Assembly: GCA_038742305.1 (NCBI GenBank)
Contig: JAVYKI010000002.1
Location: forward strand, 1,013-65,012
From: Candidatus Aenigmatarchaeota archaeon
GTDB lineage: Archaea > Aenigmatarchaeota > Aenigmatarchaeia > CG10238-14 > SpSt-28
Length of the DNA: 64,000 nt
Direction of reading: 5' to 3'
Every line of letters begins with the position of its first letter. Within the stretch, counting starts at the first letter, position 1. Shown in pieces: positions 6,001 to 52,109 of this stretch. The notes under the pieces were generated by a model. That model was given only the letters and a program-made list of their open reading frames with translations. It did not search any database and was not told the DNA's origin. The translations under genes were made by a program, and so were the position numbers.

Positions 6001-9000
6001 AAACCTTCTATTGGAGGATAATAATTACAAGTTATTGTTCCATAGGTTAATGAATTTCCTTGAGCGCAAATTAAGGAATCTAAAGTTGAATTCGGTAAAG
6101 TAACGTTTAAATAAACTATTGCTAATTGATTTTGATCGTCATAGAAATAAGCACTAAATGCTTGCAACTTATTAATTTCAATTTTTTCGCTATATGCTAA
6201 ATTGTTGATATACGGAGCTACATCAACTATATGCCAATAAACTAAAGTATAGTTTAAAGTTGGATTTGCAGAATTGTTGCTAATAGTTATGTTTAAACCT
6301 AAATCTACTGAAACATAATAACCATTTTGCCAAAGCTTTATCTGATTGCTAGATTGCTTATCAACAAACAAATATGTTGGGTTATACAATTCACCATTTA
6401 CAACTTTATTTGTTTCAAAAATTCCATTTTCTATTGGATTAGTTGCTGATAATGAAGTATAACTTATGCTAAAGTTTAGAGGAACATTTCCAATGTTTTT
6501 AATAGTTATATTTCCAAGCAGTCCAGCTTCATTTAATCCATAAGTTTCTTCTATTCGGTCAACTTTTGTCCCATTCCTTGAAAAAACTTCCATTATCCAT
6601 CTTGAATCTATTGGAACAGTAACATTTATTTCTATTTCTTTTCTCCTTTCATCTGGATAACCTAAATTGCTAGTTACATTTATTATTCCTCTGTATAATC
6701 CAGGATCTTGGCCTAACGGAATGTTTATTGTTAAAGTAAAACTTTGATAACTTCCATCATCTATGCTTTGCCAATAGTTTGGACTAATTGTTATCCATTC
6801 TTTCGGCAAGTTAATTTCTGTATAATTAACCCAAACATCTTGTAAAGGAGCATTTCCAGTATTGTTTATTGTTATAATTATTGAAAAGCTTTGATTGTGC
6901 TGAATAGTTTGAGTAATGTTATACGTGCTTAGTTCTATTTGAGGATTGCCAACAACTGTAACATATTGTTTATTAGAAAAAATTATTGAAGATTTTTGCT
7001 GCTTGTTATTTATCCAGCTAGCATTGTAAACTTGAGTGTAAGTTCTTGGTTGAGTGCCTGCGGGAATTGTTATGTTGAAAGTTATATTTATTTCACTTTC
7101 TGGCAAAATTTCTGGAATCGGAGTTGCATTAATTATTGAAAATGGACCTGAATATTTAGTTATAGCTAAATTATGAATTGTTCCTTTTCCAGTATTTTTA
7201 ACTGTTATGTTGAATTGCTCAATTTTATCTTCTGTTAAGCTAACATTAAAAACTGTTAAATTGTAAGCAATTATTTGAGCTGAAGTTCTTAAATCTTCTA
7301 AATAATAATTAAAGCTAAAGTTTGCTAATTCGTAAAATGCACTAGAATTAAATGCCGAAACATAAATTGTTTTATTTCCAGCTAATAATTCGCAATTAGT
7401 TCCTATTGTAAAGTTTTGCTCGCAATTATAGCCATAACAAGTTTTTGTAAGACCATCTATTGTAATATTTATTTGGCCTATAATTAATTCATTAGTATCT
7501 ATTCTAGTATAATTACCAACTTTTATAGTTGTAATAGCGCAGCTTGGATTGCTTACAAAATCTTGAATAACTTTATATTCTTTTGTTAAATTAGTTGGTG
7601 CCCAAATTTTTATGTTGCTTGAATTTTCTCCATAAATTCCTTGATAATTTGTTATATTAACTTTTACGTAATGAATTCCTAAGGATGGAGAATTAAACTT
7701 AATTAAATAATTTCCCTGTTCATCTGTATTATTTGAAATTAAAAGGTTATTATCGAAATAAAGCTCTGTTAAGTTATTTATTAAGGGTAAATTATCTGGC
7801 AATAAAATTGCTTTTCCATAGAAAGAAGTTGAATTGTAGATTTTGTTGGAAGGATTTAATTCTATAAATATTTTCTTAACTTCAAAATAATAACTTAAGT
7901 TAATATTATTAGCAATTATTCCATTATTTGAAATTCCGCTAATGCTTACATTTAAATTATGGCTTCCCAAGTTTAAAGGAGCATTAAAAGTTTCTGAAGT
8001 TCTCCATTTGTTTAAAGTAGAATCAAAAACTAATGTGTAATTATTTCCATTTATAGTTAAATTGAAATTTCCTTGATTAACATCAAAATAGCTTGAACCA
8101 TTAAATTCCCTTATTCTTAAAGTTAAATAATAAGTTTCATTTGGATTAAGAATGTTATCTTGTTGATTATGAGAATCTAATAAAGTTAATTGGTCAAAGG
8201 TTAAATTTCTTACTTCTATTAAAATTGAATTTTCTCCATAAATTCCTTGATAATTTGTTATGTTAACTTTTATTTTATGAATTCCTAAAATACTGGATGC
8301 ATTTATTTGGCAAGAATATTCTCCATAATTATTTGTTGCACAACTTCCATTAAACACATTATCTTGATAAACAGAAACATTTTCATTACTAACATTTAAA
8401 TTATCTGGCAATAAAATTGCTTTTCCATAAACATTTATTGCATCGTTTGGATTAGCAATTGTAGAATTTAAATTTATTGTTATATTAATGGATTTAACAA
8501 AAAATGTTATATTTTTTTCTAGCGATTCGTTAGAAACAGAATAGATTATAACTGTAAAGTTATATTCACCAATAGAAGGCACAGAAGTATTGAAGTAAAA
8601 ATATTCTCTTTTGTCTATAGAAACCAAAGGAGTTAAACTAGAGTTTTCCCAAGTTAAAGCATTACCGTTAACTCTGAAAGTTGCGTTTGCTGTTGTTTTA
8701 TTACTTCCTGAAATAAAATTAAAATCACTTGGCAAAATTATATCAAATCTCAAAATATTTTCTAAAATTGATTGTACTGAAAATGTGAAAAGTTGATTTT
8801 CCTTGTTTGCTTGAAGAATTTTAACTTGTGTTGGGGGATTAGATTCTACACTAACAACTCCTATATAAGCTTTTAAAGGTAAGTAATCAGTATTATTGCT
8901 ACAGCTTGTACAACTACTTTTACTAATTAAATCATATGGGATATCACAAATTCCATTATTGTCATTATCTTGACATGTTTTAGAATAATTCTCAAAAGTT

Positions 9001-11072
9001 CCTAAATAAACATTACCGCCAATATAATTACCTTTAATAATATTTTCTGTTTGAGTTAAAGTAGTATTCCAAAAGTTTTGATAAATTGGAGGAATAAAGT
9101 TAGCTATATATTTCGTTTTAAAGAAATTATTGTAAATTAAATTATTTGAAGATGAAGATAAACTAATTGAAAAGCTCATAAGCTTAAAGATATTTGAAAA
9201 AATGTTTGTTGAATTAGATGATATCAAATATATTCCAGTAGAAATTCCTCCTGAACCTCCCGAACCTAAAAAACCACCACTTCCTCCAGCTCCACCAGTT
9301 AAATTACTTATTGTATTCGAATAAATTGTGTTATTTTGAGAATTTTGAAGGTATATTCCAGCAGAAATTCCTCCTGAACCTCCAGAACCTTGATAACCAC
9401 CAGTTCCTCCACTCATTCCTTTAAGTCCGGAAATTGTTAAATTATAAATTATTGAATTAGTAACATTTATTAAAGCTATTCCAGCAGAAATTCCTCCTGA
9501 ACCTCCTGAACCTTGATAACCACCGATTTGAATACTTCCTCCAATTAATATTGGAGGATTAGTTGAATTTATAGTAAAGTTAGCTATTATTATATTAGAT
9601 TTATTGAAAAAGTATAAAATTGGATTATTATCAAAATAGTTTAATTTTGAAGTATCTACAATGTTGTTGTTTAATAAGGTTATTTCATTATTGTAAGAAT
9701 TGGAATCTGAAATCTATATTCCAGCAGAAATTCCTCCTGAACCTCCCGAACCAAAATCACCACCACTTCCTCCAGCTCCACCAGTTAAATTACTTATTGT
9801 ATTCGAATAAATTGTGTTATTTTGAGAATTTTGAAGGTATATTCCAGCAGAAATTCCTCCTGAACCTCCAGAACCTTGATAACCACCACTTCCTCCAGCT
9901 CCACCAGTTAAATTACTTATTGTATTATTTCTTAACAAGTTATAACTACTTTTTACAAGAATTCCAATAGCATTACCTCCATTAAAAGATCCAAAAATAT
10001 AATTTATAATGTTGTTTTCTATAATTGAAAAATTAGCTTGAGAATCTAAAAAAATACCAGTTTGCCATTTTCTAATTATACAATTTTTAATAGTAACATT
10101 TTCAGAATTAACATATATTCCATACAAATTTTTTGAAGAGATATCATTAAGAGCAAAATTACCTTCTATTATTTTTCCATTACAATCCAAAGTTACATTT
10201 TCAGAAGTTATATTAATTCCTGTAGTTAAATTCAAATTTAAAATATCTTTGCTTAAAGTGTAATAACCGGGTTTATTTATTAATAAAACATAAATTAAGC
10301 TTGAGTTCAATCCACTTATTCCATTAGAATCTGTTGTATTAATTGTTATATTATAAATTCCTAAATCTGAAGGAACAGAAAAAGTATAACTATAATTTCC
10401 ATTAGAATCAGTAGTTACATTACTTAAAAAGTTATCATCTAAGTAAATGCTTATATTTATGTTTGGAACTGTTAAATTATCTGGCAATAAAATTGCTTTT
10501 CCGTAAACATTTATTGCATCTCCTGGATTAACAATTGTAGAATTTAAATTAATTGTTACAAAAATTTTTCGAACAATAACAGTAACATTTAATTCTTCAA
10601 TGCTTCCATTTTCATACAAAGCTTTTAAAGTAAAGTTATAATATCCAACATCTGGAACAGAAGAATTAAACCAAAAATTTTTTGTTTCATTAGCTAAAAT
10701 TAGCCCAGAAAAATTTTGCCAAACTAAAGTATTTCCATAAACAAAAAAATCAGAAAAAGCATTTGTTCCGTTGCTATTAGAAATAAAACTAAAGCCTGAA
10801 GGTAAAGTAATATTAAGCTGAGTAATATTTAAAGAAAGAGTATTGTTAACAGTAAAGTTAAAAAGCTGATTAGGTAAATTTGCTTGAACTGCTTGAGGAT
10901 ATGTAATAGAAAAAGGAGGGGTATGAACTTTAACTTCTAAGCTGAAAACGTTTATAAAAAAAGCTAAAGTTAATATTAATGTAAACCATAATTTTTTACT
11001 ATTCATATCTTTCATTAATGTTTCGAAGAATAAAAGCAAAGCTTTTAAATAAGCAAAAAATTTAAAAAGCAA
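1..11072 (-). CDS. Giant secreted/surface protein, partial (runs off the left edge). It has an N-terminal signal peptide, a beta-helix region with Gly-rich GGAGGSGG..GSGGSGGISAGI repeats, many Asn/Thr-rich Ig-like modules, a TM helix and a C-terminal cytoplasmic HerA/FtsK-like P-loop ATPase domain. An in-frame TAG sits at 9714-9716.
   Basis: The ORF track gives 9714..11072 (452 aa, MLFKFF...LILTLAFFINVFS signal peptide). I translated the minus strand by hand below the TAG and it continues in the same frame (codon starts at positions congruent to 2 mod 3), with the same Gly-rich repeat motifs. No other M-initiated ORF is listed anywhere in 534..8610 on either strand, consistent with a single open frame to position 1. 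Near the 3' end: the hydrophobic segment LLLFAILIASSSAISIIF, then Walker A HTMIAGATGSGKT (~1000-1040), Walker B LIVYDEVHRL, and a tail ...EKRKIKMPKYVEEVSKEEIEKLIEKA leaving the window. NxT/S sequons are abundant. Confidence 0.6.
7560..7700 (-). repeat. A ~70-140 bp intragenic duplicate of 8190..8290 (ttttctccataaattccttgataatttgttat(a/g)ttaactttta...atgaattcctaa).
   Basis: By-eye alignment; both copies lie in the giant ORF frame. Confidence 0.5.
8395..8480 (-). repeat. Ig-like module repeat (YGKAILLPDN...). It is ~90% identical to 10472..10557, and a partial copy lies at ~7797-7830.
   Basis: Shared string ttatctggcaataaaattgcttttcc(a/g)taaacatttattgcatc...ttgtagaatttaaatt. Confidence 0.6.
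9229..9402 (-). repeat. Intragenic repeat copy 1 (~175 bp). It is near-identical to 9714..9887 and encodes Gly-rich beta-helix turns (GGAGGSGG..GSGGSGGISAGIY).
   Basis: I aligned the two copies by eye at an offset of 485 bp and found only a handful of mismatches. The 26-nt core ccagcagaaattcctcctgaacctcc recurs at ~9231, 9361, 9481, 9721 and 9841, a period of about 120-130 bp. Confidence 0.7.
9714..9887 (-). repeat. Intragenic repeat copy 2. Its first codon is the in-frame TAG, where copy 1 has TAT (Tyr).
   Basis: Direct comparison of 9229-9240 (aatatattccag) with 9711-9723 (atctatattccag). Confidence 0.7.
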
Positions 11073-11172: not shown

Positions 11173-11469
11173 TTGATAATTATTATTATGGATAACAGAG
11201 AAATATTAAAAGAAAGAATTAAATTTGTTCTCGATTTATTAAAAGAAGAAAGAAAAGAGCAAAAAATTATCGGTAGAAAAGAAAAGAACAAAGAAAAAAT
11301 TTTGGAGTTTTTGAAGCAAAATAAATTTGCTACTTTAGAAGATATTGCAAAACTTTTAAACATTTCAATTAATAGAGCTTCAGAATATTTGAACGAATTA
11401 TTCAAAGAGCAAAAAGTTACTTACATAAGAAAAAACAAGAAAAAATACTTTAAGTTGTTAAATGGTTAG
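11173..11469 (+). CDS. Small K/E-rich winged-helix (HTH) DNA-binding protein. The true start may be the MDNREIL at ~11188.
   Basis: The C-terminal ...FATLEDIAKLLNISINRASEYLNELFKEQKVTYIRKNKKKYFKLL looks like a wHTH. It overlaps the downstream ATPase gene by 8 nt. Confidence 0.5.
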   Translation: MIIIIMDNREILKERIKFVLDLLKEERKEQKIIGRKEKNKEKILEFLKQNKFATLEDIAKLLNISINRASEYLNELFKEQKVTYIRKNKKKYFKLLNG

Positions 11470-12205
11470 AATAATAGGAATAGTAAGCGGAAAAGGAGGA
11501 ACAGGAAAAACTTTAATAGCAACCAACCTTTCTTATGCAATTTCTAATTTAGGCTTTAAAACTTTATTAATAGATTTTAACTTTACAACTCCCCACATTC
11601 CAATAATTTTAAATTCGAAGCCATCTTTTACTCTTAACGATTTTTTAGAAGAAAGGGCAGATTTTTACGAAATTTTAAATCCGCACTTAAACTTTTTCTT
11701 TGTTTCCCCTTCAACTAGCCTGCAGGATTTAAAAAATTTTAAAATAGAAAATATTGAAAAGCTTAAAGAAAAGCTAAGCTATTTTGATTATGTAATAATA
11801 GATTCTGCTCCAGGTTTTGGAAGAGAAGCAACTTATTCTTTTCTTTTTTCAGATGAAATATTAATAATTGCAAATCCAAATTTATCTTCTTTGTTCGATT
11901 CTTTAAAGTGCTATGAATTAGCCAAAAGATTAGATAAAAAAGTTTTAGGAATTTTAATAAATAGATATACTAAAGATTCAGCCCTAACAATTCAAGATTT
12001 TAAAAATGTTTTCGAAATACCAATACTAGGAATAATTGAAGAAAGTAAAATTGCAAAGCAGTTAGATTTAAAGAGGAAAATGCTTTACGATTTAGATAAA
12101 AACTTTCAAAATCAAATTCTTGAAGTTGCTTATAAAATTTGTAATCTCGAAATTAAAAAAGAAAGCTTTTTGGAAAAAATAAGAAGGTTTTTCAAAATTA
12201 TCTAG
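11462..12205 (+). CDS. MinD/ParA-family (deviant Walker A) ATPase.
   Basis: GIVSGKGGTGKTLIATNLS near the N-terminus and DYVIIDSAPG later. The gene ends with a TAG stop at 12203-12205. Confidence 0.8.
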   Translation: MVRIIGIVSGKGGTGKTLIATNLSYAISNLGFKTLLIDFNFTTPHIPIILNSKPSFTLNDFLEERADFYEILNPHLNFFFVSPSTSLQDLKNFKIENIEKLKEKLSYFDYVIIDSAPGFGREATYSFLFSDEILIIANPNLSSLFDSLKCYELAKRLDKKVLGILINRYTKDSALTIQDFKNVFEIPILGIIEESKIAKQLDLKRKMLYDLDKNFQNQILEVAYKICNLEIKKESFLEKIRRFFKII

Positions 12206-42271: not shown

Positions 42272-43003
42272 TTATATAAACTTATTTAAATTCTTTTTTA
42301 TTTGATTAATTACTTTCTTTTCACTAACTTTATAAAAATTTGCAATTTCTTTAACAACTTCTATTACATCTTTGCTATTCATTTTTACATTTTTATATTC
42401 ATATGGACCATCGCTTTCAGTTAAAATATTTTTTAAATCTAAAATTTCTAAAGCTTTTCTATGATTTTCTTTAAATTTTAAAGTAATGTTGAAAGAGCAA
42501 AAGTATCCAACATTTTTAATTTCTTCTAAATAAGAAGAATATTGTACCCAATGAAAATTTGCTTTCTTTATATCAAATTTAAAAACTATATCTAAAACTT
42601 CTTTTATAGAATTTGCAGAGTGTAAATTTACAGGCAAATCATATTCTTTTGCAACTTTAATTTGCTCTACAAAAATTTCTTTTTGTTTTTCAATAGTTTT
42701 TGAAAAGAAAATTTTATCTAATCCGATTTCTCCAATTCCTATAGCATATTCAACTAATTTTTCAATTTCTTTTAAATCTTCTTTTTTTGCTAAATGAGCA
42801 TTCCAAGGATGAATTCCAACAAAAATTGGTAAATTAAATTTTTTATAAATTTCAATATTTTTTAAAGAAGTTTCCAAATTTTCGCTTACAGAAAAAATTA
42901 AAATTTTTTGATTTAAAAAATTTTCAATTTCTTTTTCAGAATATTCATAAGCATGACAATGAATATCGAAATATTTAAATAACTTGAGCTGTTCCTCCAG
43001 CAT
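42272..43003 (-). CDS. tatD: TatD-family metal-dependent hydrolase/DNase.
   Basis: FDIHCH...GIHPW...IGEIGLD...LHS...ESDGPY TatD motif series. Confidence 0.7.
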   Translation of the reverse strand: MLEEQLKLFKYFDIHCHAYEYSEKEIENFLNQKILIFSVSENLETSLKNIEIYKKFNLPIFVGIHPWNAHLAKKEDLKEIEKLVEYAIGIGEIGLDKIFFSKTIEKQKEIFVEQIKVAKEYDLPVNLHSANSIKEVLDIVFKFDIKKANFHWVQYSSYLEEIKNVGYFCSFNITLKFKENHRKALEILDLKNILTESDGPYEYKNVKMNSKDVIEVVKEIANFYKVSEKKVINQIKKNLNKFI

Positions 43004-44243
43004 GCCAACTTAATCTAGGCCTAATTACTGCAGTTAAAATTCTTTCAGAATTATCATCTAAAATTATTGCAGCTCCAGGAATTCTCGGCAATTTATTAAA
43101 TAATATTTCCAATTCTTCTTCTACGTAAGTTTGCATTATCGCTCTTAATGCTTTTAAATCTTCTCTAGCTGTTAATCTAAAAGAAATAACTATATCTGTT
43201 TGACTTAATAAATCTTGATGCAATTTATTTGGCATTTGAGTTATACAAATTAAATTTACTCCAGGCTCTCTTCCTTGCTTTGCAATTCTTAATATTGGAT
43301 CTAGTGCAATAGTTTGCTTATCGCTTGGAGCAAAATTTTGTGCTTCTTCAAAAAGCAGCCAAGTAATTGGAAAAAAATATTTTTGCTCTCTTCCTTCAAT
43401 TTTTGCAATTTCTTCTTCTTTTCTAGATAAAACTCTATTAAAATAAATAGTATTTGCAAGCCATGCAGCAATCATATTCATTATAGCAATATTTTTAACT
43501 CTTGATAAATCTATTACAGTAACTTTTCCAGGAACAACAAAATCTTCAATTCTATTTCCATATTTTTCAAAAATTTTCCAGGATTCTATTGTTTTAAAAG
43601 TGCTAACTAAAAACTTTTTAACTTCATCTTCTATTTCGTTATCATTTTTTATTTTCTCTATTAAATCGTTTAAATCATAAATTTCCTTTTCCTTTGCTAA
43701 TTCATTTAAATTTTTTTCTAATGCAATAGCTGCTTTGCTAGTTCTTTCTAATTCTAATGTCCTAATCCAATCTTCTGCAGTAAATATGTTAGTAGCTAAA
43801 GAAAAAGAATCGTCAACAGGAATTCCAGCATTAATATAATCTTCATACAAACCTTTTGGAACTAATACTCTAAAATATTCTTTAAAACCTCTTGGCTCTA
43901 AATTCCATTGTTGCAAAATTTGCTTCATTGCTAAGTTTGGATATTTCATGCTCCAATAAATTCCCATCGGGTCAACTATTACAAAAGCACTTTTATTCCT
44001 TATTTCATCTTCTAATTTGCAAAATTCTTCTATAATTACTCCAGCAGAAAAACTTTTTCCAGAGCCTCTTTTGCCACAAATTAAAACAACATGAGCTTTT
44101 ATAAAATCGAAATAAACTTTTGTAGTAAGCTGCCAATCATATTCACCAATTACTAATTGTCTTCCAATAAATCCAGCACCTTTAATTCCATATTTTTTTA
44201 AATCTTCTTTGCTTCTTCCAACAACATTTTCAATAATTTCCAT
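42975..44243 (-). CDS. HerA/FtsK-superfamily P-loop ATPase (DUF87-like).
   Basis: VVLICGKRGSGKSFSAGVIIEE Walker A; ITWLLFEEAQNFAP Walker B-like; overlaps the tatD start by 29 nt. Confidence 0.6.
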   Translation of the reverse strand: MEIIENVVGRSKEDLKKYGIKGAGFIGRQLVIGEYDWQLTTKVYFDFIKAHVVLICGKRGSGKSFSAGVIIEEFCKLEDEIRNKSAFVIVDPMGIYWSMKYPNLAMKQILQQWNLEPRGFKEYFRVLVPKGLYEDYINAGIPVDDSFSLATNIFTAEDWIRTLELERTSKAAIALEKNLNELAKEKEIYDLNDLIEKIKNDNEIEDEVKKFLVSTFKTIESWKIFEKYGNRIEDFVVPGKVTVIDLSRVKNIAIMNMIAAWLANTIYFNRVLSRKEEEIAKIEGREQKYFFPITWLLFEEAQNFAPSDKQTIALDPILRIAKQGREPGVNLICITQMPNKLHQDLLSQTDIVISFRLTAREDLKALRAIMQTYVEEELEILFNKLPRIPGAAIILDDNSERILTAVIRPRLSWHAGGTAQVI

Positions 44244-45311: not shown

Positions 45312-46235
45312 ATGGTTTCAAAAAGCTTTGGTGCTATATTTAATAACTTTATTATATTACTATTTTTATTTTCTGTAGTTTTTGCTCAGAATGAAACCAA
45401 TCCATTAGAAATAGTACTAGGAATAATACCGGTAATAATTGTAATATTAATACTTTTGTGGTTGGGCGGAGTATTTAAAGCTCCAGGAGGAAGATTTCCC
45501 CTAGCTCCTATACTTTATGTACTACTTATAGTAATAATTTTTGTATTACCTCTTTTACAAAGGTTAGGTTATATTAAGATTTTTCCCGATACTATAAGTT
45601 CTGAAACGTTAAAGCAATGGGGATTTCCTCAGCAAAACAAATTACCAGATTTCGCTTGTAAAGTTCTTACTGGTTTAACTTTGCAAGAAGAAATTGCTTG
45701 TTATGTTCCTGAACTTATATTCTTCTTTATTCTTCCTTTTGCAGCAATTTTTGCTATAACATGGGCATTTTTAAAAATGTTAAATATATTTGAAAATGTA
45801 CCAAATGCTGATAACATTTACAGATTATTAGCTTTTATAATAGCATTTATGACGATTCCTATGGGTATTTTTATGATTCTTATAGCTACATGGTTTAGCT
45901 TTTTAGGCGCTTTTTCTATTGCTGTTTTTGTTGCAATGTTTATTGCTGGAGTGTTTTTCAGAGGATATGGATATATTAGAGCAGAAGCTTATGGAGTAGC
46001 TTTAAAAACTTTATCTATAAGAATAAAAGAAGCTAGAGCTAAATTTGAAAAATTATTAGATCAAGTGGATGATTTGAGTGTAGATGCTCTAAGAAATGAA
46101 TTAAAAGATTTAAGAAGAGCTTATGGAGATCTAGATGCTGTAGTTTCTGAAATTCCAACTAAAACTGAAATTGATAATTGGGATAAAAATACAATAAAGC
46201 AAAGAATTCAAAACATAATTAACAAACTTAAATAA
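45312..46235 (+). CDS. Polytopic membrane protein with a signal peptide and a C-terminal cytoplasmic coiled coil. It appears related to the two small membrane proteins at 49516-50564.
   Basis: Hydrophobicity pattern; FILPFAAIFAITWAFLKMLNIFE resembles VPFLISFAFFYALFEKIKI in the downstream paralogs. Confidence 0.4.
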   Translation: MVSKSFGAIFNNFIILLFLFSVVFAQNETNPLEIVLGIIPVIIVILILLWLGGVFKAPGGRFPLAPILYVLLIVIIFVLPLLQRLGYIKIFPDTISSETLKQWGFPQQNKLPDFACKVLTGLTLQEEIACYVPELIFFFILPFAAIFAITWAFLKMLNIFENVPNADNIYRLLAFIIAFMTIPMGIFMILIATWFSFLGAFSIAVFVAMFIAGVFFRGYGYIRAEAYGVALKTLSIRIKEARAKFEKLLDQVDDLSVDALRNELKDLRRAYGDLDAVVSEIPTKTEIDNWDKNTIKQRIQNIINKLK

Positions 46236-48429
46236 ATTCTAGCATTTGTTTTTCCCATCTTCTAAGTATTTCTTTAGAATCTAAATATCCAAGCTCTCTT
46301 TTTACTTCTTCAGAAATTAAGTGAAAATACTCGTTTGCTAAAACAACATATTCCGCTTCAAGCAATTCTGGCTTATTATACTTTTCAGAAAATTCTATTA
46401 ATTTTTCTTTAATTTTTGCTCTTAGCATTATATTTTCCCAAACTAAATCCCAATTTCCATGAAATTCCGGAACTCTTCTCATTATTTCTCTAATTACAAA
46501 ACTTTCTCCATTAATTAAAGTTGGAGTAGGTATTAAATTATCTTCTTTTGCATTATAAATCATTAGCGGAATAAAAGCATTTTCTCTTAATGGATCGTCT
46601 TCCCAATTTTTTCTAACTTCTATAACTTCAACAACTCTTTTAAACCTTCTTATACCATCTGCGCTTTTTAAATTAGCGGTAATAATTATTAAATCTACAG
46701 CCTTAAAGCTTGTTTTTGGAACTTTTAAATCGTTTACAACTCTATCAAAAACTCCATAAGCAGATTCTCCATGAATAGTTCCTGCAACAACATGAGCTAA
46801 TGCTCCAATTCTCATTGCTTCAAACAAAGTAAGAGCTTCAGTACTTCTTATTTCTCCAATTATTAATGCACTATCTCCAAGCCTTAATGCAGTTCTTAAT
46901 GCTTCTTCAGCTGGCAACTCGCTTTCTACTCTAGTTATTACGCTTCTAGCTTTTAATCTTTCAATATTATAGCCAATTTCTCTCATTTGTGGAACAGGAA
47001 GCTCTAAAGTATCTTCAAGAACAATTATTCTATATTTTTTAGGAATTTCTAACATTAAAGCTTGAAGTAATGAAGTTTTTCCCGAACCTCTACCTCCAGC
47101 AACTAAGAAGCTTCTAGCACCACTAACTATAAAATTCATTAATCCAGCAAAAAGAGAATTTATCATTTTCTTTTTTATAAATAAAGGCAAAGTCCACGGC
47201 TTATCTCTATGCCTTCTAAAAGCAAAAGATAAACCTTCTGGAGTTAATGGTCTAGTAGTTATTGCAACCCTTGCTCTTCCTTCTGGCAAGTTTAATTCGG
47301 TATCCAAAACAGGGTTTGCTTCATCTAGCGGTCTTCCAGAATAAAGCCTAAACTTTGTTGCCCAGTTTTCAGCTTCTACGGGAGAAATTATAATGTTAGT
47401 TTCGCATTCTTCAAATTCAGAATGCTGAATAAAAACTGGCTTGCTTCCAATTGGCGAGTTAATATAAATATCTGTAATGTTTTCATCAGCAACAAATCTT
47501 TCTAAAATTCCATATCCAACAGTATATTTTAATAAAATATTTGTAAGCTCTTCAATCCTTTTTTCGGTTAATGGTATATTCATTTCTGCAGAAACTTTTT
47601 TTATTAAATCTCTTTCTAAATTAAAAAAAGCTTCTCTAGTTTTTTCAAAATCCTTTAATTCTTCTTCGCTTACTTTATGCTCAGCCAAAATTGCTCTTAC
47701 TCTTTCGAGTATTTTTATTTCTTCATCTGAAAGAAAAAATTCTGGAGCCAAAATCATATAAAGAGGCCTAACTTTATTAGGAACTTTAAAAATTTCTACT
47801 TCAAAATCTCTTACTTTATACTTAGCTAATCTAATAGAATTTTTTGGAGGCAAAATATAAAACTTTGTTTCTAAAAATATTGGCCTAATTATAGGATTAA
47901 GGTATTCTCTATAAACGCTTCTATCACCAATTTTAATATTTTTATCTTTAGAAACTTTTACAAAAAAATTTTTTTCTAGTATTGAAATTAAGGGCTCTAT
48001 ATGATATTTAATAAAATTTAAGTAAGTATCATCTTTTGTTTTTTCGTAAAGAGCTAAAAGTTTTGGTCTAAACAGTAAAAGTTTTTTGTAACTTGAAATT
48101 ATATCCTCTTTAATTTCTTCTATAAAAGAATTTAACTGATCAAAAAACTTTTGCAAAACGTTTAGCTTTCTCACTTCTTTTAAAGTAGGTACATTAATCC
48201 TATTTTTTATTATTTCTTCATAAGTTTCTGCAATTTCTCTTAATAATTTAGTTTGCTCATAAGGATATTCCAATTCTTTTAAACTTTGAATTATTATTTC
48301 TAAAACATTTTTATTTTGAATTAATTGTTCTATACAAATTTTCATAAGCTCTCTAGAATCTTCTATAGGTACAATTGGCTTGTCAGAAATTTTTATTATT
48401 AACTTATTTTCTTCGATTCTTATATCCAT
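46228..48429 (-). CDS. FlaI/TadA/VirB11-family secretion-type ATPase, with long N- and C-terminal extensions (733 aa).
   Basis: LVAGGRGSGKTSLLQALMLEI, IIVLEDTLEL, IIGEIR. Confidence 0.8.
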   Translation of the reverse strand: MDIRIEENKLIIKISDKPIVPIEDSRELMKICIEQLIQNKNVLEIIIQSLKELEYPYEQTKLLREIAETYEEIIKNRINVPTLKEVRKLNVLQKFFDQLNSFIEEIKEDIISSYKKLLLFRPKLLALYEKTKDDTYLNFIKYHIEPLISILEKNFFVKVSKDKNIKIGDRSVYREYLNPIIRPIFLETKFYILPPKNSIRLAKYKVRDFEVEIFKVPNKVRPLYMILAPEFFLSDEEIKILERVRAILAEHKVSEEELKDFEKTREAFFNLERDLIKKVSAEMNIPLTEKRIEELTNILLKYTVGYGILERFVADENITDIYINSPIGSKPVFIQHSEFEECETNIIISPVEAENWATKFRLYSGRPLDEANPVLDTELNLPEGRARVAITTRPLTPEGLSFAFRRHRDKPWTLPLFIKKKMINSLFAGLMNFIVSGARSFLVAGGRGSGKTSLLQALMLEIPKKYRIIVLEDTLELPVPQMREIGYNIERLKARSVITRVESELPAEEALRTALRLGDSALIIGEIRSTEALTLFEAMRIGALAHVVAGTIHGESAYGVFDRVVNDLKVPKTSFKAVDLIIITANLKSADGIRRFKRVVEVIEVRKNWEDDPLRENAFIPLMIYNAKEDNLIPTPTLINGESFVIREIMRRVPEFHGNWDLVWENIMLRAKIKEKLIEFSEKYNKPELLEAEYVVLANEYFHLISEEVKRELGYLDSKEILRRWEKQMLEFI

Positions 48430-48455
48430 AATATAAACATTAATGATTAATAATT

Positions 48456-48803
48456 ATGGAAAATGTATTGAACGAACTGCCAATAAGAATAAGAATTATG
48501 GAGCAACAATTAAGAAAGCTTGATGATAACGTTAAAAGTCTTGAAAATATGATTAATTTTAATGTTAAAAATATTAACGAAAAAATAAGAGAATTAAAAA
48601 ACGATATAGAAATTTTGAAAGAAAAAGTAAACGACCTATATCAAAAAATAGATAGAATAGAAAGTGAAATGAGAAGAAAAGCAAATTTAAGCGATTTAAA
48701 AGAATTAAAAGAGCTTATAGACATCTTCAATCCATTAAAATCTACTTTTGTTACTAGAGATGAAGTAAAGAGAATAATCGAAGAAATAATAAAAACTAAA
48801 TAA
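48456..48803 (+). CDS. Coiled-coil protein (115 aa).
   Basis: Heptad-rich sequence; it is divergent from the FlaI-like gene with only a 26-bp spacer. Confidence 0.4.
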   Translation: MENVLNELPIRIRIMEQQLRKLDDNVKSLENMINFNVKNINEKIRELKNDIEILKEKVNDLYQKIDRIESEMRRKANLSDLKELKELIDIFNPLKSTFVTRDEVKRIIEEIIKTK

Positions 48804-48808
48804 ATATT

Positions 48809-49519
48809 ATGGTTACTCTTTTTGGTAAAAAAGAAGAAAAGAAGGTTGGAAGAGGTTTCGTTCCTATAGAAAGGGTAAAAGAAATGCTTGATAAAGGTTT
48901 TAATGAAATTGAAATAATTGATACTTTGAGGAAAGAAGGATTTAGTGCAGAAGAAATAGATAAAGCTTTAACAGAAGCTTATAAAGACGTTATTTCTAGA
49001 CCTTTACAACCAAGCACTGAACAAACTACAAATACTCAACCTCCTCAAATTCAAGCCCAATATCAACCTTTTCAAAACATATCTGCTCCTCTAAAAGATG
49101 AAGGTTTATCAAAAGAAATAAAACCACTAGCTCAAACTCAAACTCAACAAACATTTTATCAACCCTTTAAATCAGAAATAGAAACTAAATTAGAAGATCA
49201 AATTTCTTTAGAAGAATACTTAGATGCTTTAATAAAAAGTAATTTAGATGAATTAAACAAAAGATTAATGGAAATTTCTTTGAAGCAAAGAGAATTAGAA
49301 GAAAAAATTGCAGATTTTGAAAATAAATTAGCCGAAACTGAAAAATCTAGAAAAGATGAATTAGAAAAAATTCTTTTAGAAATAAGAGGTTCTAGGGAAA
49401 ATATAAACGATTTGATTGTAAAAGTCGAAACTTTATCGAAAACTATAAAAGAATTATTACCAACTTTAATAGAAGCAGTAAGATTATTAAGCGAAATAGT
49501 TCAGCAAAAAACTAAATGA
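48809..49519 (+). CDS. Protein with an N-terminal small domain, a Q/P/T-rich linker and a C-terminal coiled coil.
   Basis: GFVPIERVKEMLDKGFNEIEIIDTLRKEGFSAEEIDKAL; linker PLQPSTEQTTNTQPPQIQAQYQPFQ; coiled-coil tail. Confidence 0.4.
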   Translation: MVTLFGKKEEKKVGRGFVPIERVKEMLDKGFNEIEIIDTLRKEGFSAEEIDKALTEAYKDVISRPLQPSTEQTTNTQPPQIQAQYQPFQNISAPLKDEGLSKEIKPLAQTQTQQTFYQPFKSEIETKLEDQISLEEYLDALIKSNLDELNKRLMEISLKQRELEEKIADFENKLAETEKSRKDELEKILLEIRGSRENINDLIVKVETLSKTIKELLPTLIEAVRLLSEIVQQKTK

Positions 49520-50037
49520 GCTATTTTGAAGAAGTTGCAAATTTTTTAATTCAGTCTGGAACAATATCTTTTTTAGTACCATTTTTAATTTCTTTTGCAT
49601 TCTTTTATGCTTTATTTGAAAAAATTAAAATTTCAGAGAAAAAATCAATTAGTACAATTTTAGCATTTTCTATAAGTTTACTAATTTTTACTTTTCCATT
49701 AATTAGCGGAATAGATTTAGGAGTAGCTCTTTCTTATTATTTTGCTCAAGCTTTTGGATTTTTAATTGTTTTAGTTTTTGGATTATTGGTAGCTTCTTTA
49801 TTTTATCCAGATTTTAGTGAAAAATTAAAGCAATTTTTTGTAACTAGAGGAGTATTAGTCGCTATGATAGCTTTAGCTTTAACTCTTTTTGTAACTAGTG
49901 GTATTTTAAACCTTCTTTTCTTTTCTTTTTCTCCTCAAACAGAAAACACATTATCTGAAGCTGTAAACGTAGGAATATTGGCTGCACTACTTATAATATT
50001 CGCAGTATTAATAGCTATTTCTAGTAGAATAAGATGA
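49516..50037 (+). CDS. Small polytopic membrane protein, paralog A.
   Basis: Four predicted TM segments; paralogous to the next ORF. Confidence 0.5.
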   Translation: MSYFEEVANFLIQSGTISFLVPFLISFAFFYALFEKIKISEKKSISTILAFSISLLIFTFPLISGIDLGVALSYYFAQAFGFLIVLVFGLLVASLFYPDFSEKLKQFFVTRGVLVAMIALALTLFVTSGILNLLFFSFSPQTENTLSEAVNVGILAALLIIFAVLIAISSRIR

Positions 50038-50564
50038 GCGATGCATTTACTCTTACAATACAATTTTTAGATTCAATAGGATTTTTTAAGTTTGTAATTC
50101 CTTATATTTTAACATTTGCAATTTTTTATGGATTGCTTAGAAAATCTCAAATATTTGGAGAAAGGAAAGAAGCTGTTGCTATAAATGCTACTATTGCACT
50201 TTCCGCAAGCCTATTAGTTACTGCAGCTCCAATACTAGCTGGAATAGACATTTCCACAGCTTTATCACAATTTTTGGCTTTCTTCTTAGTAATACTAGTA
50301 ATAATTCTTGTGTTAGTTTTTATTCCTTTAACAATTTATGGAAAAAGTTTATCTGACTTAGGACTTAAAGGTTGGAATTCGGCTATAGTTATAATTGTTA
50401 TAATAGCAGTTGCAGTATTAATTGCAACGGGCTTATTATTAGGTCCGTTTTTAAACTTTTTCGGTGCTGTTTCAGAGGAAACACTGTATTCAATAGTAAC
50501 TTTAGGCATATTTTTGGCAATAATGCTAGCAATACTATTCTTTCCTTCTAAAAAACAATCATAA
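50034..50564 (+). CDS. Small polytopic membrane protein, paralog B.
   Basis: Alignable with the preceding ORF (VPFLISFAFFYALFEKIKI/IPYILTFAIFYGLLRKSQIF; ISGIDLGVALS/LAGIDISTALS). Confidence 0.5.
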   Translation: MSDAFTLTIQFLDSIGFFKFVIPYILTFAIFYGLLRKSQIFGERKEAVAINATIALSASLLVTAAPILAGIDISTALSQFLAFFLVILVIILVLVFIPLTIYGKSLSDLGLKGWNSAIVIIVIIAVAVLIATGLLLGPFLNFFGAVSEETLYSIVTLGIFLAIMLAILFFPSKKQS

Positions 50565-50566
50565 AG

Positions 50567-51322
50567 CTAAAGGAAACTTAAAGCCTCTTTTTCTACAGAA
50601 GAAAGCTCTGAAGGAATTATTAAAACATAAGGTGGAAATCCAAAATCTTTTTCAAGAAGATTTTCTATTTTATCGAAAAATATTTTTTCATTTTTAAAAC
50701 CAACTCTACAAGCAATTATTACTTCTATTTCTTTATTTATTATATTTTGTTTATACTCTTTTTCAGCTTCTAATAAAAGCTTTAAAGCTTCATTCGGCTT
50801 AAGATATTCATTTTTTTCTTTATCTATATCTAATAAGCAAAGAGTATGAAGTTTGTTTTTTTTGTTAACTTTAATAGCTTCGTAAACGCTATAAGGCAAT
50901 TTTTCGTATTTAGATTTTAAAGGTATAGTAACTATTTTCCCGAATTTATAGCAGCTTAAACCTATTTCGAAAATTGCTGTTAAAATCGAAGAAGAGTGAA
51001 TTGTTTTTATTTCCACATTTTGCTTTTTTGCTTCAATTTTTAAAGAAATGTGAGTAGTTGCGAAAAAAGGATCTCCATAAACTAAAATAGCAACATCTTT
51101 TTCCTTTGCTTCTTCTATTATTTTTCCTAAGTTATTTTCTAAATCTTCTCTTTTTAAAATTTCAACTTTTTTACCTATAAAACTTTCGATTTCTTCTTTA
51201 GAAGATTCAAAATAATTTGTATAATCTTCTAAATAAACTTTTTCGCATTTTTTAATAGCATTTAAACCTTTAATGCTTATGTCTTCAACATTCGCAACTC
51301 CAAGCCCTATTAAGTATATCAT
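50567..51322 (-). CDS. dphB: Diphthine synthase (Dph5); the start is likely at the internal MIYLIGLG.
   Basis: YLIGLGVANVEDISIKGL...VYGDPFFATTH is a tetrapyrrole-methylase-like fold. Confidence 0.75.
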   Translation of the reverse strand: MIYLIGLGVANVEDISIKGLNAIKKCEKVYLEDYTNYFESSKEEIESFIGKKVEILKREDLENNLGKIIEEAKEKDVAILVYGDPFFATTHISLKIEAKKQNVEIKTIHSSSILTAIFEIGLSCYKFGKIVTIPLKSKYEKLPYSVYEAIKVNKKNKLHTLCLLDIDKEKNEYLKPNEALKLLLEAEKEYKQNIINKEIEVIIACRVGFKNEKIFFDKIENLLEKDFGFPPYVLIIPSELSSVEKEALSFL

Positions 51323-52109
51323 TATTAATTTCAAAAACTTCAACTTTTTTATTTTTTATTTTTGCAAAACTTACTTTTTCATTTCCATAAACATTTTTCA
51401 TAGAAAAAATTGTTAGAACTTTGTTTTCATGATTAAGTTTATATGCATTACATGGCTCATGAGACCTAATTACTAATTTAAAATTATTTTTTTCAAGAAA
51501 ATTTTTTGTAACTTCTTTTGAAAACAAATAACCAATTCCTCTAAAAGATGGAGCAGTTTCTTCTTCTGTAGGATCGTTCCAAAGCATTTGAATAATATTT
51601 TCTTTATCTAGCAATTCTTCAATTTTTGGGGAAGAAATAGGAATTCCTCCATGAACTAAAAATATTTTTTCATTAGCTACAGCAAAATAAGAAAGTTTAT
51701 TCCAAAAACTTTTTACTTTTTGATAAATTTCATAAGCTTTATTTCCAAATTTTGATAATAAAGCTCTTGGAAAATCGTGAGGAGCAAAAGGAATTTCAAC
51801 ATATTCATGATTCCCCTTTAAAAGTATAACATCTTTTTTCAAAATTTCTTTTAATTTTAAAATAAAATAATAAACTTCTACTTGATAGTTTCCTCTATCT
51901 CCATAATCTCCTAAAAAAACTATTTTTTCATTTTCTCTATTTTCCAAAATTTTTAGTAAAGAATCCAAATCTCCATGCAAATCTCCTATAACTAAAAAAT
52001 CTCCTTTCAAAATTTCATATTCATTCTGCTCTTCAAATTCTTCTAATAATTTTTCAAATTCATAAGGAGTTAATTTAAATGCTTCTTCTTTAATTTTTTC
52101 TAGATTCAT
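51285..52109 (-). CDS. PPP-family Ser/Thr protein phosphatase (metallophosphoesterase).
   Basis: GDLHGD, GDYGDRG, GNHE, HGG. Confidence 0.8.
   Translation of the reverse strand: MNLEKIKEEAFKLTPYEFEKLLEEFEEQNEYEILKGDFLVIGDLHGDLDSLLKILENRENEKIVFLGDYGDRGNYQVEVYYFILKLKEILKKDVILLKGNHEYVEIPFAPHDFPRALLSKFGNKAYEIYQKVKSFWNKLSYFAVANEKIFLVHGGIPISSPKIEELLDKENIIQMLWNDPTEEETAPSFRGIGYLFSKEVTKNFLEKNNFKLVIRSHEPCNAYKLNHENKVLTIFSMKNVYGNEKVSFAKIKNKKVEVFEINNDILNRAWSCEC

What the first reader, a model, noticed from the sequence alone, without database searches (positions are those of the whole stretch)
45312..50564. FlaI/VirB11-like ATPase cluster with three paralogous small polytopic membrane proteins and two coiled-coil proteins, but no recognizable platform protein or pilins
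A 733-aa secretion-type ATPase (the usual FlaI is ~540 aa) sits back-to-back with a 26-bp divergent spacer to four plus-strand genes. These are a 115-aa coiled coil, a 236-aa protein with a globular N-terminal domain plus a Q/P-rich linker plus a coiled coil, and two clearly paralogous ~175-aa 4-TM proteins. A third related membrane protein (45312-46235) is convergent on the other side. I see no FlaJ/TadC-size platform, prepilin peptidase or class-III-signal pilins. The paralogous small membrane proteins could be a split or novel platform, which would make this a candidate uncharacterized type-IV-filament-like or secretion module.
Basis: partly seen in the sequence, partly recalled or inferred. 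Interest (0 to 1): 0.6.

Follow-up and report, generated by a model that had tools for sequence, protein, structure and literature searches.

The report
DPANN pilus ATPase with conserved accessory genes
This is the motor ATPase of an archaeal type IV pilus-like machine, with a set of helper genes of unknown function that recurs in about 50 related DPANN loci; the small membrane proteins are helpers, not a replacement for the usual membrane platform, which in this lineage is simply not encoded next to the ATPase.

Summary
The window comes from a Candidatus Aenigmatarchaeota genome assembled from a metagenome (DPANN archaea, about 26% GC).

**What the cluster contains**
- A 733-aa PilB/FlaI/GspE-type ATPase.
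- Four translationally coupled genes across a 26-bp divergent spacer:
  - a short coiled-coil protein (ccS);
  - a longer protein with a three-helix head, a P/Q-rich linker and a coiled coil (ccL);
  - two paralogous membrane proteins with five transmembrane helices (5-TM).
- A convergent 307-aa membrane protein (mem307). It shares the first three transmembrane helices of the 5-TM family, a link seen only at profile level.

**How widely it is conserved**
- The ATPase–ccS–ccL–5-TM unit recurs in every one of about 20 distinct genome loci (Aenigmarchaeota and one Pacearchaeota).
- In metagenome loci, 28 of 32 ATPases with enough upstream sequence have the ccS and ccL pair.

**Why the split-platform idea fails**
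- Outside the window's clade, 15 distinct genome loci and 52 metagenome loci also carry a canonical 640–700-aa T2SSF (TadC/FlaJ-like) platform just downstream of the ATPase; the loci read in detail also carry pilins.
- The 5-TM proteins show no sequence or fold similarity to platforms.
- They are therefore accessory parts, not a split platform.

**What is unusual here**
- In the window's clade (five loci) mem307 occupies the platform's position.
- No platform, pilin or prepilin peptidase lies within 10 kb, or in the window itself.
- Whether these genes moved elsewhere or were lost is unresolved.

Verdict: a new variant of a known kind, of moderate interest.

The parts
46228..48429 (-). 733-aa type IV filament assembly ATPase of the PilB/FlaI/GspE/TadA superfamily. 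It belongs to a roughly 745-aa DPANN family with its own N-terminal extension.
   Evidence: - Pfam T2SSE 8.4e-19.
- NCBIfam FlaI model 1.4e-41, but 143 bits against a cut-off of 550, so it is not a FlaI equivalog.
- Best solved relatives are A. fulgidus GspE 2OAP (6e-35), CpaF and FlaI.
- Walker A, Asp box, Walker B and His box are intact.
- More than 100 homologs at 45-82% identity, all about 745 aa, several carrying inteins.
47845..48429 (-). N-terminal extension of the ATPase (residues 1 to about 195): a small alpha/beta domain (1-56) followed by a helical bundle (57-176), ahead of the FlaI-like N-domain.
   Evidence: - AF2 model of residues 1-290: pLDDT 87.5, pTM 0.76.
- The extension is conserved across the family at 27-66% identity.
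48430..48455 (.). 26-bp AT-rich divergent intergenic spacer between the ATPase and the four-gene operon.
   Evidence: - Sequence read directly: aatataaacattaatgattaataatt.
- The divergent arrangement is kept in all related loci.
48456..48803 (+). ccS: a 115-aa cytoplasmic coiled-coil protein with a conserved C-terminal motif, NP-x-x-S-x-FVT-(R/K)-(D/E)-E.
   Evidence: - 17-sequence alignment with invariant A76, P93 and F98.
- Only generic coiled-coil hits in Pfam and the PDB.
- Always the first gene divergent from the ATPase.
48809..49519 (+). ccL: a 236-aa cytoplasmic protein. It has an N-terminal head of about 45 aa (GFxExEIIDxLRKEGFSxEEIDxAL, likely a three-helix domain), a variable P/Q-rich linker, and a coiled coil ending in a conserved LPxLIExVRxLS motif.
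   Evidence: - 17-sequence alignment.
- Sub-threshold RecX_HTH1, UBA and DUF7310 hits only.
- Its coiled coil aligns with that of ccS (hhalign probability 91%, E 1e-6).
49516..50037 (+). 5-TM-a: a 173-aa member of an unannotated family of five-transmembrane-helix membrane proteins.
   Evidence: - BLASTP 4e-12 to the next gene.
- Family HMM 1.5e-35.
- No Pfam hit above its curated cut-off (only Acyl_transf_3 at 19 bits against 31) and no NCBIfam hit.
50034..50564 (+). 5-TM-b: a 176-aa paralog. The family hallmark is TM1 plus the following loop, GFFKFxLPFxLTxAIFYGLLRKSxIFG.
   Evidence: - 51 clusters by phmmer.
- 1413 representatives at 50% identity with E <= 1e-3 by profile search.
- AF2 pLDDT 80, five transmembrane helices.
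45312..46235 (+). mem307: a 307-aa membrane protein made of a signal peptide, two transmembrane helices, a loop with two Cys, three transmembrane helices homologous to TM1-3 of the 5-TM family, and a C-terminal helical (coiled-coil-like) tail of about 80 aa, cytoplasmic by inference. In this clade it sits convergent where other lineages carry the platform gene.
   Evidence: - hhalign against the 5-TM family: probability 86%, E 4.9e-6; against the platform: probability 0.6%.
- 52 homolog clusters.
- Same position in L001, L020, L021 and L022.

Best explanation
The region encodes the motor ATPase and a lineage-specific accessory module of a DPANN-type archaeal type IV pilus-like machine.

**Shown**
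- The ATPase is a catalytically intact PilB/FlaI/GspE-type enzyme with a family-specific N-terminal extension.
- ccS, ccL and two or more 5-TM paralogs are its conserved divergent neighbours across Aenigmarchaeota and one Pacearchaeota locus.
- Outside the window's clade, every locus where the ATPase's downstream side can be read (15 distinct genome loci, 52 metagenome loci) also encodes a T2SSF platform just after the ATPase. The loci read in detail add several class-III-signal pilin-like proteins and large secreted Cys-rich proteins.

**Inferred mechanism**
- The 5-TM proteins form a hetero-oligomeric membrane anchor. Their most conserved feature, the TM1-TM2 loop YGLLRKSxIFG, faces the cytoplasm. 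The topology (N terminus outside, C terminus inside) follows from the positive-inside rule and from paralogs that carry cleavable signal peptides.
- ccS and ccL pair through their homologous coiled coils and hang from this anchor.
- The three-helix head of ccL, held on a flexible P/Q linker, or the C-terminal motif of ccS, docks the N-terminal extension of the ATPase.
- Together they would form a cytoplasmic cage that positions or restrains the ATPase hexamer at the membrane. FlaX/FlaH or FlaCDE do this in the archaellum, PilM-N-O in T4a pili, and GspL-M in type II secretion.

**The window's clade**
In this thermophilic clade (ATPase 60-82% identical among members), the platform and pilin genes have been separated from the ATPase. 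Their slot holds mem307, a third family member fused to a C-terminal helical tail that is predicted to lie in the cytoplasm and may join the same scaffold. The platform most likely sits elsewhere in the genome, perhaps next to the prepilin peptidase as in other DPANN relatives.
For: **Identity of the ATPase:**

**Conservation of the unit**
- Called gene order and Pfam annotation, or their absence, around ATPase homologs.
- HMM map of 25 loci. ccS and ccL are divergent from the ATPase in every locus with flank. 5-TM hits are present in all but L017 at E < 1e-5, and L017 has weaker hits (1.2e-7 and 2.9e-4).
- The 5-TM genes can flip orientation and still stay adjacent (L011, L014, L015, L017).
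- The flanking genes differ in Pacearchaeota L015, so the linkage is not just inherited synteny.
- Metagenome scan: 28 of 32 ATPases have ccS and ccL.

**Canonical parts in sister loci**
- The platform belongs to T2SSF.
- 'MKG|hydrophobic' pilin-like ORFs lie downstream: 4 in L002 and 6 in L003.

**Constraint and organisation**
- All six window genes are under purifying selection.
- The four-gene operon is translationally coupled.

**Relationships among the parts**
- ccS and ccL coiled coils are homologous.
- mem307 shares the core of the 5-TM family. mem307-type and 5-TM-type genes also cluster together away from the ATPase (L025).

**Precedent for separating platform and ATPase**
- 10 metagenome loci have a platform with no ATPase upstream.
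- All 4 of those tested are paired with a Peptidase_A24 prepilin peptidase.
Against: - No physical or genetic evidence exists for any interaction. The scaffold model rests on gene order, topology and analogy.
- No platform, pilin or peptidase was found for this genome. Only 64 kb of it could be read, and attempts to reach the rest failed.
- Four related ATPase-platform loci (L045, L064, L067, L071) have no ccS or ccL hit. In the three read in detail (L045, L064, L067) a 420-aa soluble protein takes that position. The module is therefore not obligatory for the ATPase family.
- mem307-type and 5-TM-type genes also occur away from any ATPase (L025), so the family may have a role that is not strictly tied to the pilus.
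- Profile matches between coiled coils can be inflated by composition.
Confidence: 0.6

Rival explanations
1. Split or novel platform. The 5-TM paralogs, with or without mem307, replace the T2SSF platform and couple the ATPase to filament assembly or secretion.
For: - The window contains no T2SSF protein, and these are its only polytopic proteins.
- mem307 sits exactly where the platform gene lies in other lineages.
Against: - Outside the window's clade the same 5-TM genes coexist with a full platform.
- There is no profile similarity between them: probability 0.7% and 0.6%.
- The proteins lack the two cytoplasmic helical-bundle domains that define T2SSF proteins (model).
Confidence: 0.06
2. 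Repurposed machine without a pilus. This clade has lost the platform and pilins, and keeps the ATPase with its accessory and membrane proteins for another ATP-driven membrane task, for example in contact with a host cell.
For: - Five clade loci have no platform or pilin within 10 kb on either side.
- The ATPase and accessory genes remain under purifying selection.
- The clade gained an extra family member, mem307, beside the ATPase.
Against: - Absence is shown only locally.
- Orphan loci pairing a platform with a prepilin peptidase exist in related DPANN, so simple relocation is the more economical reading.
- The catalytic motifs and the N-terminal extension are unchanged relative to homologs linked to a platform.
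- From general knowledge, no PilB/FlaI-type ATPase is known to work without a T2SSF partner.
Confidence: 0.12
3. Neighbours with an unrelated function. The coiled-coil and 5-TM proteins belong to a different membrane or cytoskeletal system, such as envelope organisation or division, and sit beside the ATPase through inherited gene order or shared regulation.
For: - The housekeeping gene dph5 is also syntenic next to the cluster in Aenigmarchaeota.
- mem307-type and 5-TM-type genes occur without an ATPase in L025.
- Some ATPase-platform pairs lack the coiled-coil genes.
Against: - The divergent ccS-ccL/ATPase junction is kept even where the flanks differ (Pacearchaeota L015), where a toxin-antitoxin pair is inserted (L023), and where the 5-TM genes are inverted.
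- 28 of 32 independent metagenome loci keep the junction.
Confidence: 0.12

Closest known systems
Archaeal type IV pilus loci as catalogued by Makarova, Koonin and Albers 2016 (PMC4858521), especially subclade 4F
   Same: - A VirB11/FlaI-family ATPase paired with a TadC-like platform and class III pilins (seen here in sister loci).
[quoted passage not shown]
- Those loci carry an intracellular coiled-coil protein (arCOG07564).
[quoted passage not shown]
   Different: - Membership of subclade 4F was not tested, because no reference sequences were available.
- The 4F extension is described there as cysteine-rich; the extension here is an alpha/beta domain plus a helical bundle.
- The 5-TM family and the two-protein coiled-coil pair are not described there.
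- The window's clade lacks an adjacent platform.
Archaellum motor accessory proteins: FlaX/FlaH (Crenarchaeota) and FlaC/D/E (Euryarchaeota)
   Same: Coiled-coil proteins, soluble or membrane-anchored, are encoded beside a FlaI-type ATPase and are thought to form a cytoplasmic ring or scaffold. mem307 (membrane anchor plus C-terminal helical tail) resembles FlaX in layout.
   Different: - Homology is not significant: FlaC_arch hits reach only E 4.8e-4 to 0.027, below threshold.
- No FlaH, FlaF, FlaG or archaellin gene was recognised in any of the loci.
- The ATPase scores 143 bits against the 550-bit cut-off of the FlaI equivalog model.
Bacterial alignment and assembly-platform subcomplexes: PilM-PilN-PilO (T4a pili) and GspL-GspM (type II secretion)
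   Same: Proposed role: membrane-anchored coiled-coil proteins that dock the N-terminal domain of the ATPase and hold it at the platform.
   Different: - PilN, PilO, GspL and GspM are bitopic proteins with periplasmic ferredoxin-like domains. Here the anchors are five-transmembrane-helix proteins and the coiled coils are separate soluble proteins.
- No sequence or fold similarity was detected.
A. fulgidus GspE (PDB 2OAP), CpaF/TadA and S. acidocaldarius FlaI (PDB 4II7/4IHQ)
   Same: These are the closest solved relatives of the ATPase core: E 6e-35, 4e-24 and 2.7e-22. They cover both the N-domain and the C-terminal ATPase domain.
   Different: They are 420-513 aa long and lack both the roughly 195-residue N-terminal extension and the roughly 50-residue C-terminal tail of this family.

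Membership tests
Type II/IV secretion and type IV filament assembly ATPases (Pfam T2SSE; PilB/GspE/FlaI/TadA) | T2SSE domain scoring above the Pfam gathering threshold | tested here: met
   67.9 bits against a cut-off of 24.9, E 8.4e-19.
Type II/IV secretion and type IV filament assembly ATPases (Pfam T2SSE; PilB/GspE/FlaI/TadA) | Walker A, Asp box, Walker B and His box all present | tested here: met
   GGRGSGKTS 445-453, VLEDTLEL 470-477, LIIGEIRS 522-529 and AGTIHGES 549-556. These positions are near-invariant across the family.
Type II/IV secretion and type IV filament assembly ATPases (Pfam T2SSE; PilB/GspE/FlaI/TadA) | Hexameric, ATP-hydrolysing motor | not testable with these tools
   This needs biochemistry or a structure of the complex.
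Archaellum motor ATPase FlaI (NCBIfam NF058587 equivalog) / archaellum operon | Score above the equivalog cut-off | tested here: not met
   142.9 bits against a cut-off of 550.
Archaellum motor ATPase FlaI (NCBIfam NF058587 equivalog) / archaellum operon | Co-encoded FlaH (KaiC-like), FlaF/FlaG and archaellins | tested here: not met
   No such Pfam families appear on any called gene in loci L001-L003 or L020-L023. None was seen in the parts of the window that were scanned.
Complete archaeal type IV pilus locus (ATPase + TadC/FlaJ platform + class III pilins + prepilin peptidase) | T2SSF-family platform encoded next to the ATPase | tested here: not met
   Absent from the window and from all five clade loci within 10 kb either side. 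Present in the 15 distinct genome loci outside the clade.
Complete archaeal type IV pilus locus (ATPase + TadC/FlaJ platform + class III pilins + prepilin peptidase) | Pilins with class III signal peptides | tested here: not met
   A crude regex plus hydrophobicity screen finds no pilin candidate in the window. It finds 4 such ORFs in L002 and 6 in L003, all downstream of the platform. The rest of the genome could not be tested.
Complete archaeal type IV pilus locus (ATPase + TadC/FlaJ platform + class III pilins + prepilin peptidase) | Peptidase_A24 prepilin peptidase (PibD/FlaK/EppA) | tested here: inconclusive
   The window has no polytopic candidate. The enzyme is usually encoded elsewhere. 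It is found beside orphan platforms in L038, L044, L046 and L053.
T2SSF platform proteins (GspF/PilC/TadB/TadC/FlaJ), as a home for the small membrane proteins | PF00482 T2SSF domain, or profile similarity to the cognate platform | tested here: not met
   No Pfam hit above any curated cut-off and none to T2SSF (the 173-aa protein has one sub-threshold hit, Acyl_transf_3, 19 bits against 31), and no NCBIfam hit. hhalign probability is 0.7% for the 5-TM family and 0.6% for mem307 against the platform alignment.
T2SSF platform proteins (GspF/PilC/TadB/TadC/FlaJ), as a home for the small membrane proteins | Fold: cytoplasmic helical-bundle domains alternating with transmembrane helices | tested here: not met

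The most novel reading that the evidence does not exclude
In this thermophilic Aenigmarchaeota clade the T2SSF platform and the pilins have really been lost. The PilB/FlaI-type ATPase now works with the 5-TM/mem307 family and the two coiled-coil proteins as its only membrane partners. That would be the first derivative of a type IV filament machine without a platform, perhaps acting at the contact site between symbiont and host.
Probability: 0.1. Interest if true: 0.75.

Novelty: new variant of a known kind. Interest (0 to 1): 0.42.

Why it matters
DPANN archaea are tiny and mostly live attached to host cells. Surface filaments are the leading candidates for how they find and hold their hosts, yet the base of their pilus machine is unknown.

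This analysis defines a recurrent accessory module that nobody has annotated: two coiled-coil proteins and a five-transmembrane-helix family with more than 1400 sequence clusters. The module travels with the DPANN pilus ATPase and has no counterpart in studied archaeal or bacterial systems. It gives concrete targets for cryo-ET, pull-down experiments and genetics.

The window's clade adds a natural experiment. Here the ATPase and its accessory genes are conserved with no platform or pilin nearby. That could show whether the module can act independently of a pilus. If the platform has simply moved elsewhere in the genome, the finding is a modest extension of the known diversity of archaeal type IV pili.

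Tried and rejected
**Searches for known relatives that came back empty**
- Fold search of the 5-TM model against the AlphaFold database (afdb50): the library was not available.
- PDB sequence-profile searches:
  - 5-TM family (A1): no hits.
  - ccL (A2) and ccS (A4): only coiled-coil noise such as GCN4 and viral spike proteins.
- Pfam scans of every ccS and ccL homolog: only sub-threshold coiled-coil families. DUF7310 recurs in 8 of 17 ccL and 4 of 17 ccS members, but below its cut-off.

**mem307 as a truncated platform**
- Rejected: hhalign probability 0.6%.
- The mem307 C-terminal tail shows no support for a relationship to ccS or ccL: probability 3-4%.

**Attempts to reach the rest of the source contig or genome, to look for platform, pilins and peptidase**
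- Exact-protein look-ups either failed or returned only short Logan contigs.
- The platform-anchored metagenome scan found no locus that could be assigned to the low-GC window clade.

**Literature searches**
- Searches for a description of this module found only general statements. Aenigmarchaeota carry FlaI/FlaJ/FlaG homologs (PMC8407114), and DPANN pilus islands contain unrecognisable components (PMC6393860).
- The MoxR-associated 'novel secretion system' of Makarova 2015 (PMC5898192) is unrelated.

Full report
**Source and observation**

The window has about 26% GC. Its ATPase is 100% identical to a protein annotated in a 'Candidatus Aenigmatarchaeota archaeon' genome assembled from a metagenome, on an 87.7-kb contig. 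The locus tags are QXQ14_00915 to QXQ14_00940.

The spacer between the ATPase and the plus-strand genes is 26 bp and AT-rich. The four plus-strand genes are 5 nt apart or overlap by 4 nt, so they look like one translationally coupled operon. The 307-aa gene converges on the ATPase and overlaps it by 8 nt.

Compared with an 82%-identical relative (L020), all six genes have dN/dS of 0.15-0.47. They are therefore real genes under constraint. dS is 0.84-1.40, near saturation, so these ratios are approximate.

**The ATPase**

- It carries a T2SSE domain (8.4e-19).
- It is closest to FlaI, TadA and VirB11 models, but lies far below the FlaI equivalog cut-off (143 against 550 bits).
- Its best solved relatives are A. 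fulgidus GspE, CpaF and FlaI.
- Walker A, Asp box, Walker B and His box are intact.
- The extra length is a family trait. More than 100 homologs of about 745 aa share it, and the N-terminal 297 residues are 27-66% identical across the loci.
- Several homologs carry inteins, which from general knowledge tend to sit in highly conserved, important proteins.

**The accessory proteins**

- ccS (115 aa) and ccL (236 aa) have no transmembrane segments and give only generic coiled-coil matches.
- Alignments of 17 homologs each show specific conserved features:
  - in ccS, a C-terminal NPxxSxFVT(R/K)(D/E)E motif;
  - in ccL, an N-terminal head of about 45 residues (GFSExEIIDxLRKEGFSxEEIDxAL), a P/Q-rich linker of very variable length, and a coiled coil ending in LPxLIESVRxLS.
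- The coiled coils of ccS and ccL align with each other (probability 91%).
- The 173-aa and 176-aa proteins are paralogs (4e-12). The AF2 model has five transmembrane helices (pLDDT 80).
- Their family has 51 clusters by phmmer and 1413 representatives by profile search. It has no Pfam hit above a curated cut-off, no NCBIfam family and no PDB relative.
- The most conserved part is TM1 and the basic loop that follows it (YGLLRKSxIFG).
- Some paralogs have a cleavable signal peptide ahead of the N-terminal helix. Together with the positive-inside rule, this gives a topology with the N terminus outside and the C terminus inside, and puts the conserved loop in the cytoplasm. This topology is an inference.
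- mem307 shares TM1-3 of this family only at profile level (probability 86%, E 4.9e-6). It adds two N-terminal transmembrane helices and a C-terminal helical tail, placed in the cytoplasm by the same inference. A 179-aa protein in L025 hits both profiles and sits beside a mem307-type gene, which supports one superfamily.

**Context in other genomes**

Loci around ATPase homologs were taken from NCBI assemblies, JGI and Logan contigs and a GTDB genome scan. They were mapped with HMMs for each component.

- In every locus with enough flank, ccS and ccL lie divergent from the ATPase, in that order.
- Two to five 5-TM paralogs follow. They are either co-oriented or inverted (L011, L014, L015, L017).
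- This holds in a Pacearchaeota contig with different flanks (L015).
- It also holds in L023, where a MazE-PIN pair is inserted between ccS and ccL.
- In 80 metagenome loci anchored on the platform gene, 28 of 32 ATPases with enough upstream sequence have ccS and ccL. The four exceptions have no ccS or ccL hit; the three read in detail carry a 420-aa soluble protein instead.

**The platform question**

Outside the window's clade, the ATPase in every genome locus is followed, usually within a few bases, by a 644-702-aa protein with 7-10 predicted transmembrane helices.

- Eight of eleven of these proteins hit PF00482 T2SSF (best 3.3e-8).
- The only PDB sequence hits of their profile are GspF.
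- In the loci read in detail, several ORFs follow that start with 'MKG' or similar plus a hydrophobic stretch, the class III signal typical of archaeal pilins. Large Cys-rich secreted proteins follow as well.

These loci are therefore complete type IV pilus loci that also contain the accessory module. The 5-TM family and mem307 show no profile similarity to this platform (probability 0.7% and 0.6%). The split-platform idea is not supported.

**What is unusual in the window**

The window, L020 (82%), L001 (68%), L021 (62%) and L022 (60%) form a low-GC clade (26-32% GC). L001 carries reverse gyrase. In this clade the gene downstream of the ATPase is the convergent mem307 rather than the platform. 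No platform HMM hit occurs within 10 kb on either side.

In the part of the window that lies outside the giant gene (9.4-64 kb), the three family members are the only proteins with more than two predicted transmembrane helices. The window also yields no pilin candidate.

I could not read the remaining roughly 24 kb of the contig or the other contigs. Separation of platform and ATPase has precedent. Ten platform loci in the metagenome scan have no ATPase upstream, and all four that were tested are paired with a Peptidase_A24 prepilin peptidase. Relocation is therefore the economical reading, and loss remains possible.

**Mechanism**

Shown: the genes are genetically linked and conserved, the ATPase is intact, and canonical pilus parts occur in sister loci.

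Inferred:
- The 5-TM proteins form a membrane anchor.
- The ccS-ccL coiled-coil pair hangs from their conserved cytoplasmic loop.
- The ccL head on its flexible linker, or the ccS C-terminal motif, docks the family-specific N-terminal extension of the ATPase.
- Together they form a cage that positions or restrains the hexamer. By analogy only, this matches FlaX/FlaH or FlaCDE, PilM-N-O and GspL-M.
- In the window's clade the helical tail of mem307 may join this scaffold.

**Comparison with what is known, and novelty**

The closest described systems are the archaeal type IV pilus loci of Makarova et al. 2016. Their subclade 4F combines ATPases with an extra N-terminal domain, an intracellular coiled-coil protein (arCOG07564) and nanoarchaeal members without identifiable pilins. 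That is a lead and not a tested membership.

Later papers note only two things. DPANN pilus islands contain unrecognisable components (PMC6393860), and Aenigmarchaeota carry FlaI, FlaJ and FlaG homologs (PMC8407114). I found no description of the ccS/ccL/5-TM module.

I rate this a new variant of a known kind: a type IV pilus-like system with a new, widely conserved accessory module, plus a clade-specific layout in which the ATPase lacks an adjacent platform. Interest is moderate (0.42). It would rise sharply if the platform proves to be absent from the whole genome.

Noticed in passing
window 1-9416 (minus strand, runs off the window start); also 9714-11072 (-): A giant ORF of more than 3138 aa. 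It has GGSGG-rich repeats that look like a beta-helix, an NPCBM_assoc/NEW3 domain (2e-15) and, at residues 2773-2940, a HerA/DUF87 plus ResIII-type P-loop domain (2e-9). A secreted right-handed beta-helix protein (PF13229, 5.7e-10) is encoded just upstream. A surface protein fused to a HerA-like ATPase is unusual.
   Followed up: partly
L017 9929-13705; L021 10001-13780; proteins P0013, P0068, P0075, P0079, P0101, P0117: Several orthologs of the ATPase are 1240-1270 aa long because they carry an intein with a LAGLIDADG homing endonuclease (PF14890, PF14528) inside the ATPase domain.
   Followed up: no
L038 2495-5912; L044 4910-7962; L046 5195-8013; L053 4915-7950: 'Orphan' homologs of the platform with no ATPase within 3-6 kb upstream. 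Each is paired divergently with a Peptidase_A24 prepilin peptidase (E 2.6e-8 to 3.6e-6). This shows that platform and ATPase can be unlinked in related DPANN lineages.
   Followed up: partly
L023 4998-5662 and 8001-8954: A MazE-PIN toxin-antitoxin pair is inserted between ccS and ccL without breaking up the module. In the same locus a 317-aa member of the 5-TM family carries a C-terminal Peptidase_S74 (intramolecular chaperone) domain.
   Followed up: no
L045 462-1733; L064 2262-3524; L067 2219-3484: In a higher-GC lineage (46-53% GC) the roughly 750-aa ATPase and its platform are divergent from a 420-aa soluble protein instead of ccS and ccL. This may be an alternative accessory partner.
   Followed up: no
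L025 9187-10900: A mem307-type gene lies directly after two 5-TM-type genes (179 aa and 90 aa) on a 723-kb contig, with no ATPase within 10 kb. A pilin-like 98-aa ORF (MMGSKG|DDTLIWIIL...) lies about 7 kb away. The membrane family is therefore not always next to the ATPase.
   Followed up: partly
window 42272-44243 (-) and 11462-12205 (+): A second, stand-alone HerA/DUF87 ATPase (1.3e-13) overlaps a TatD-family DNase gene (2.2e-44). A MinD/ParA-type ATPase is encoded at 11.5 kb. Neither is linked to the cluster in other loci.
   Followed up: no
window 50567-51343 (-) and the equivalent position in L001-L008, L010-L012, L014, L016-L018 and L020-L024: Diphthine synthase (dph5, TP_methylase) lies on the far side of the 5-TM genes from the ATPase, within 0-4 kb, in every Aenigmarchaeota locus with enough flank but not in Pacearchaeota L015. 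This is probably inherited synteny rather than a functional link.
   Followed up: no
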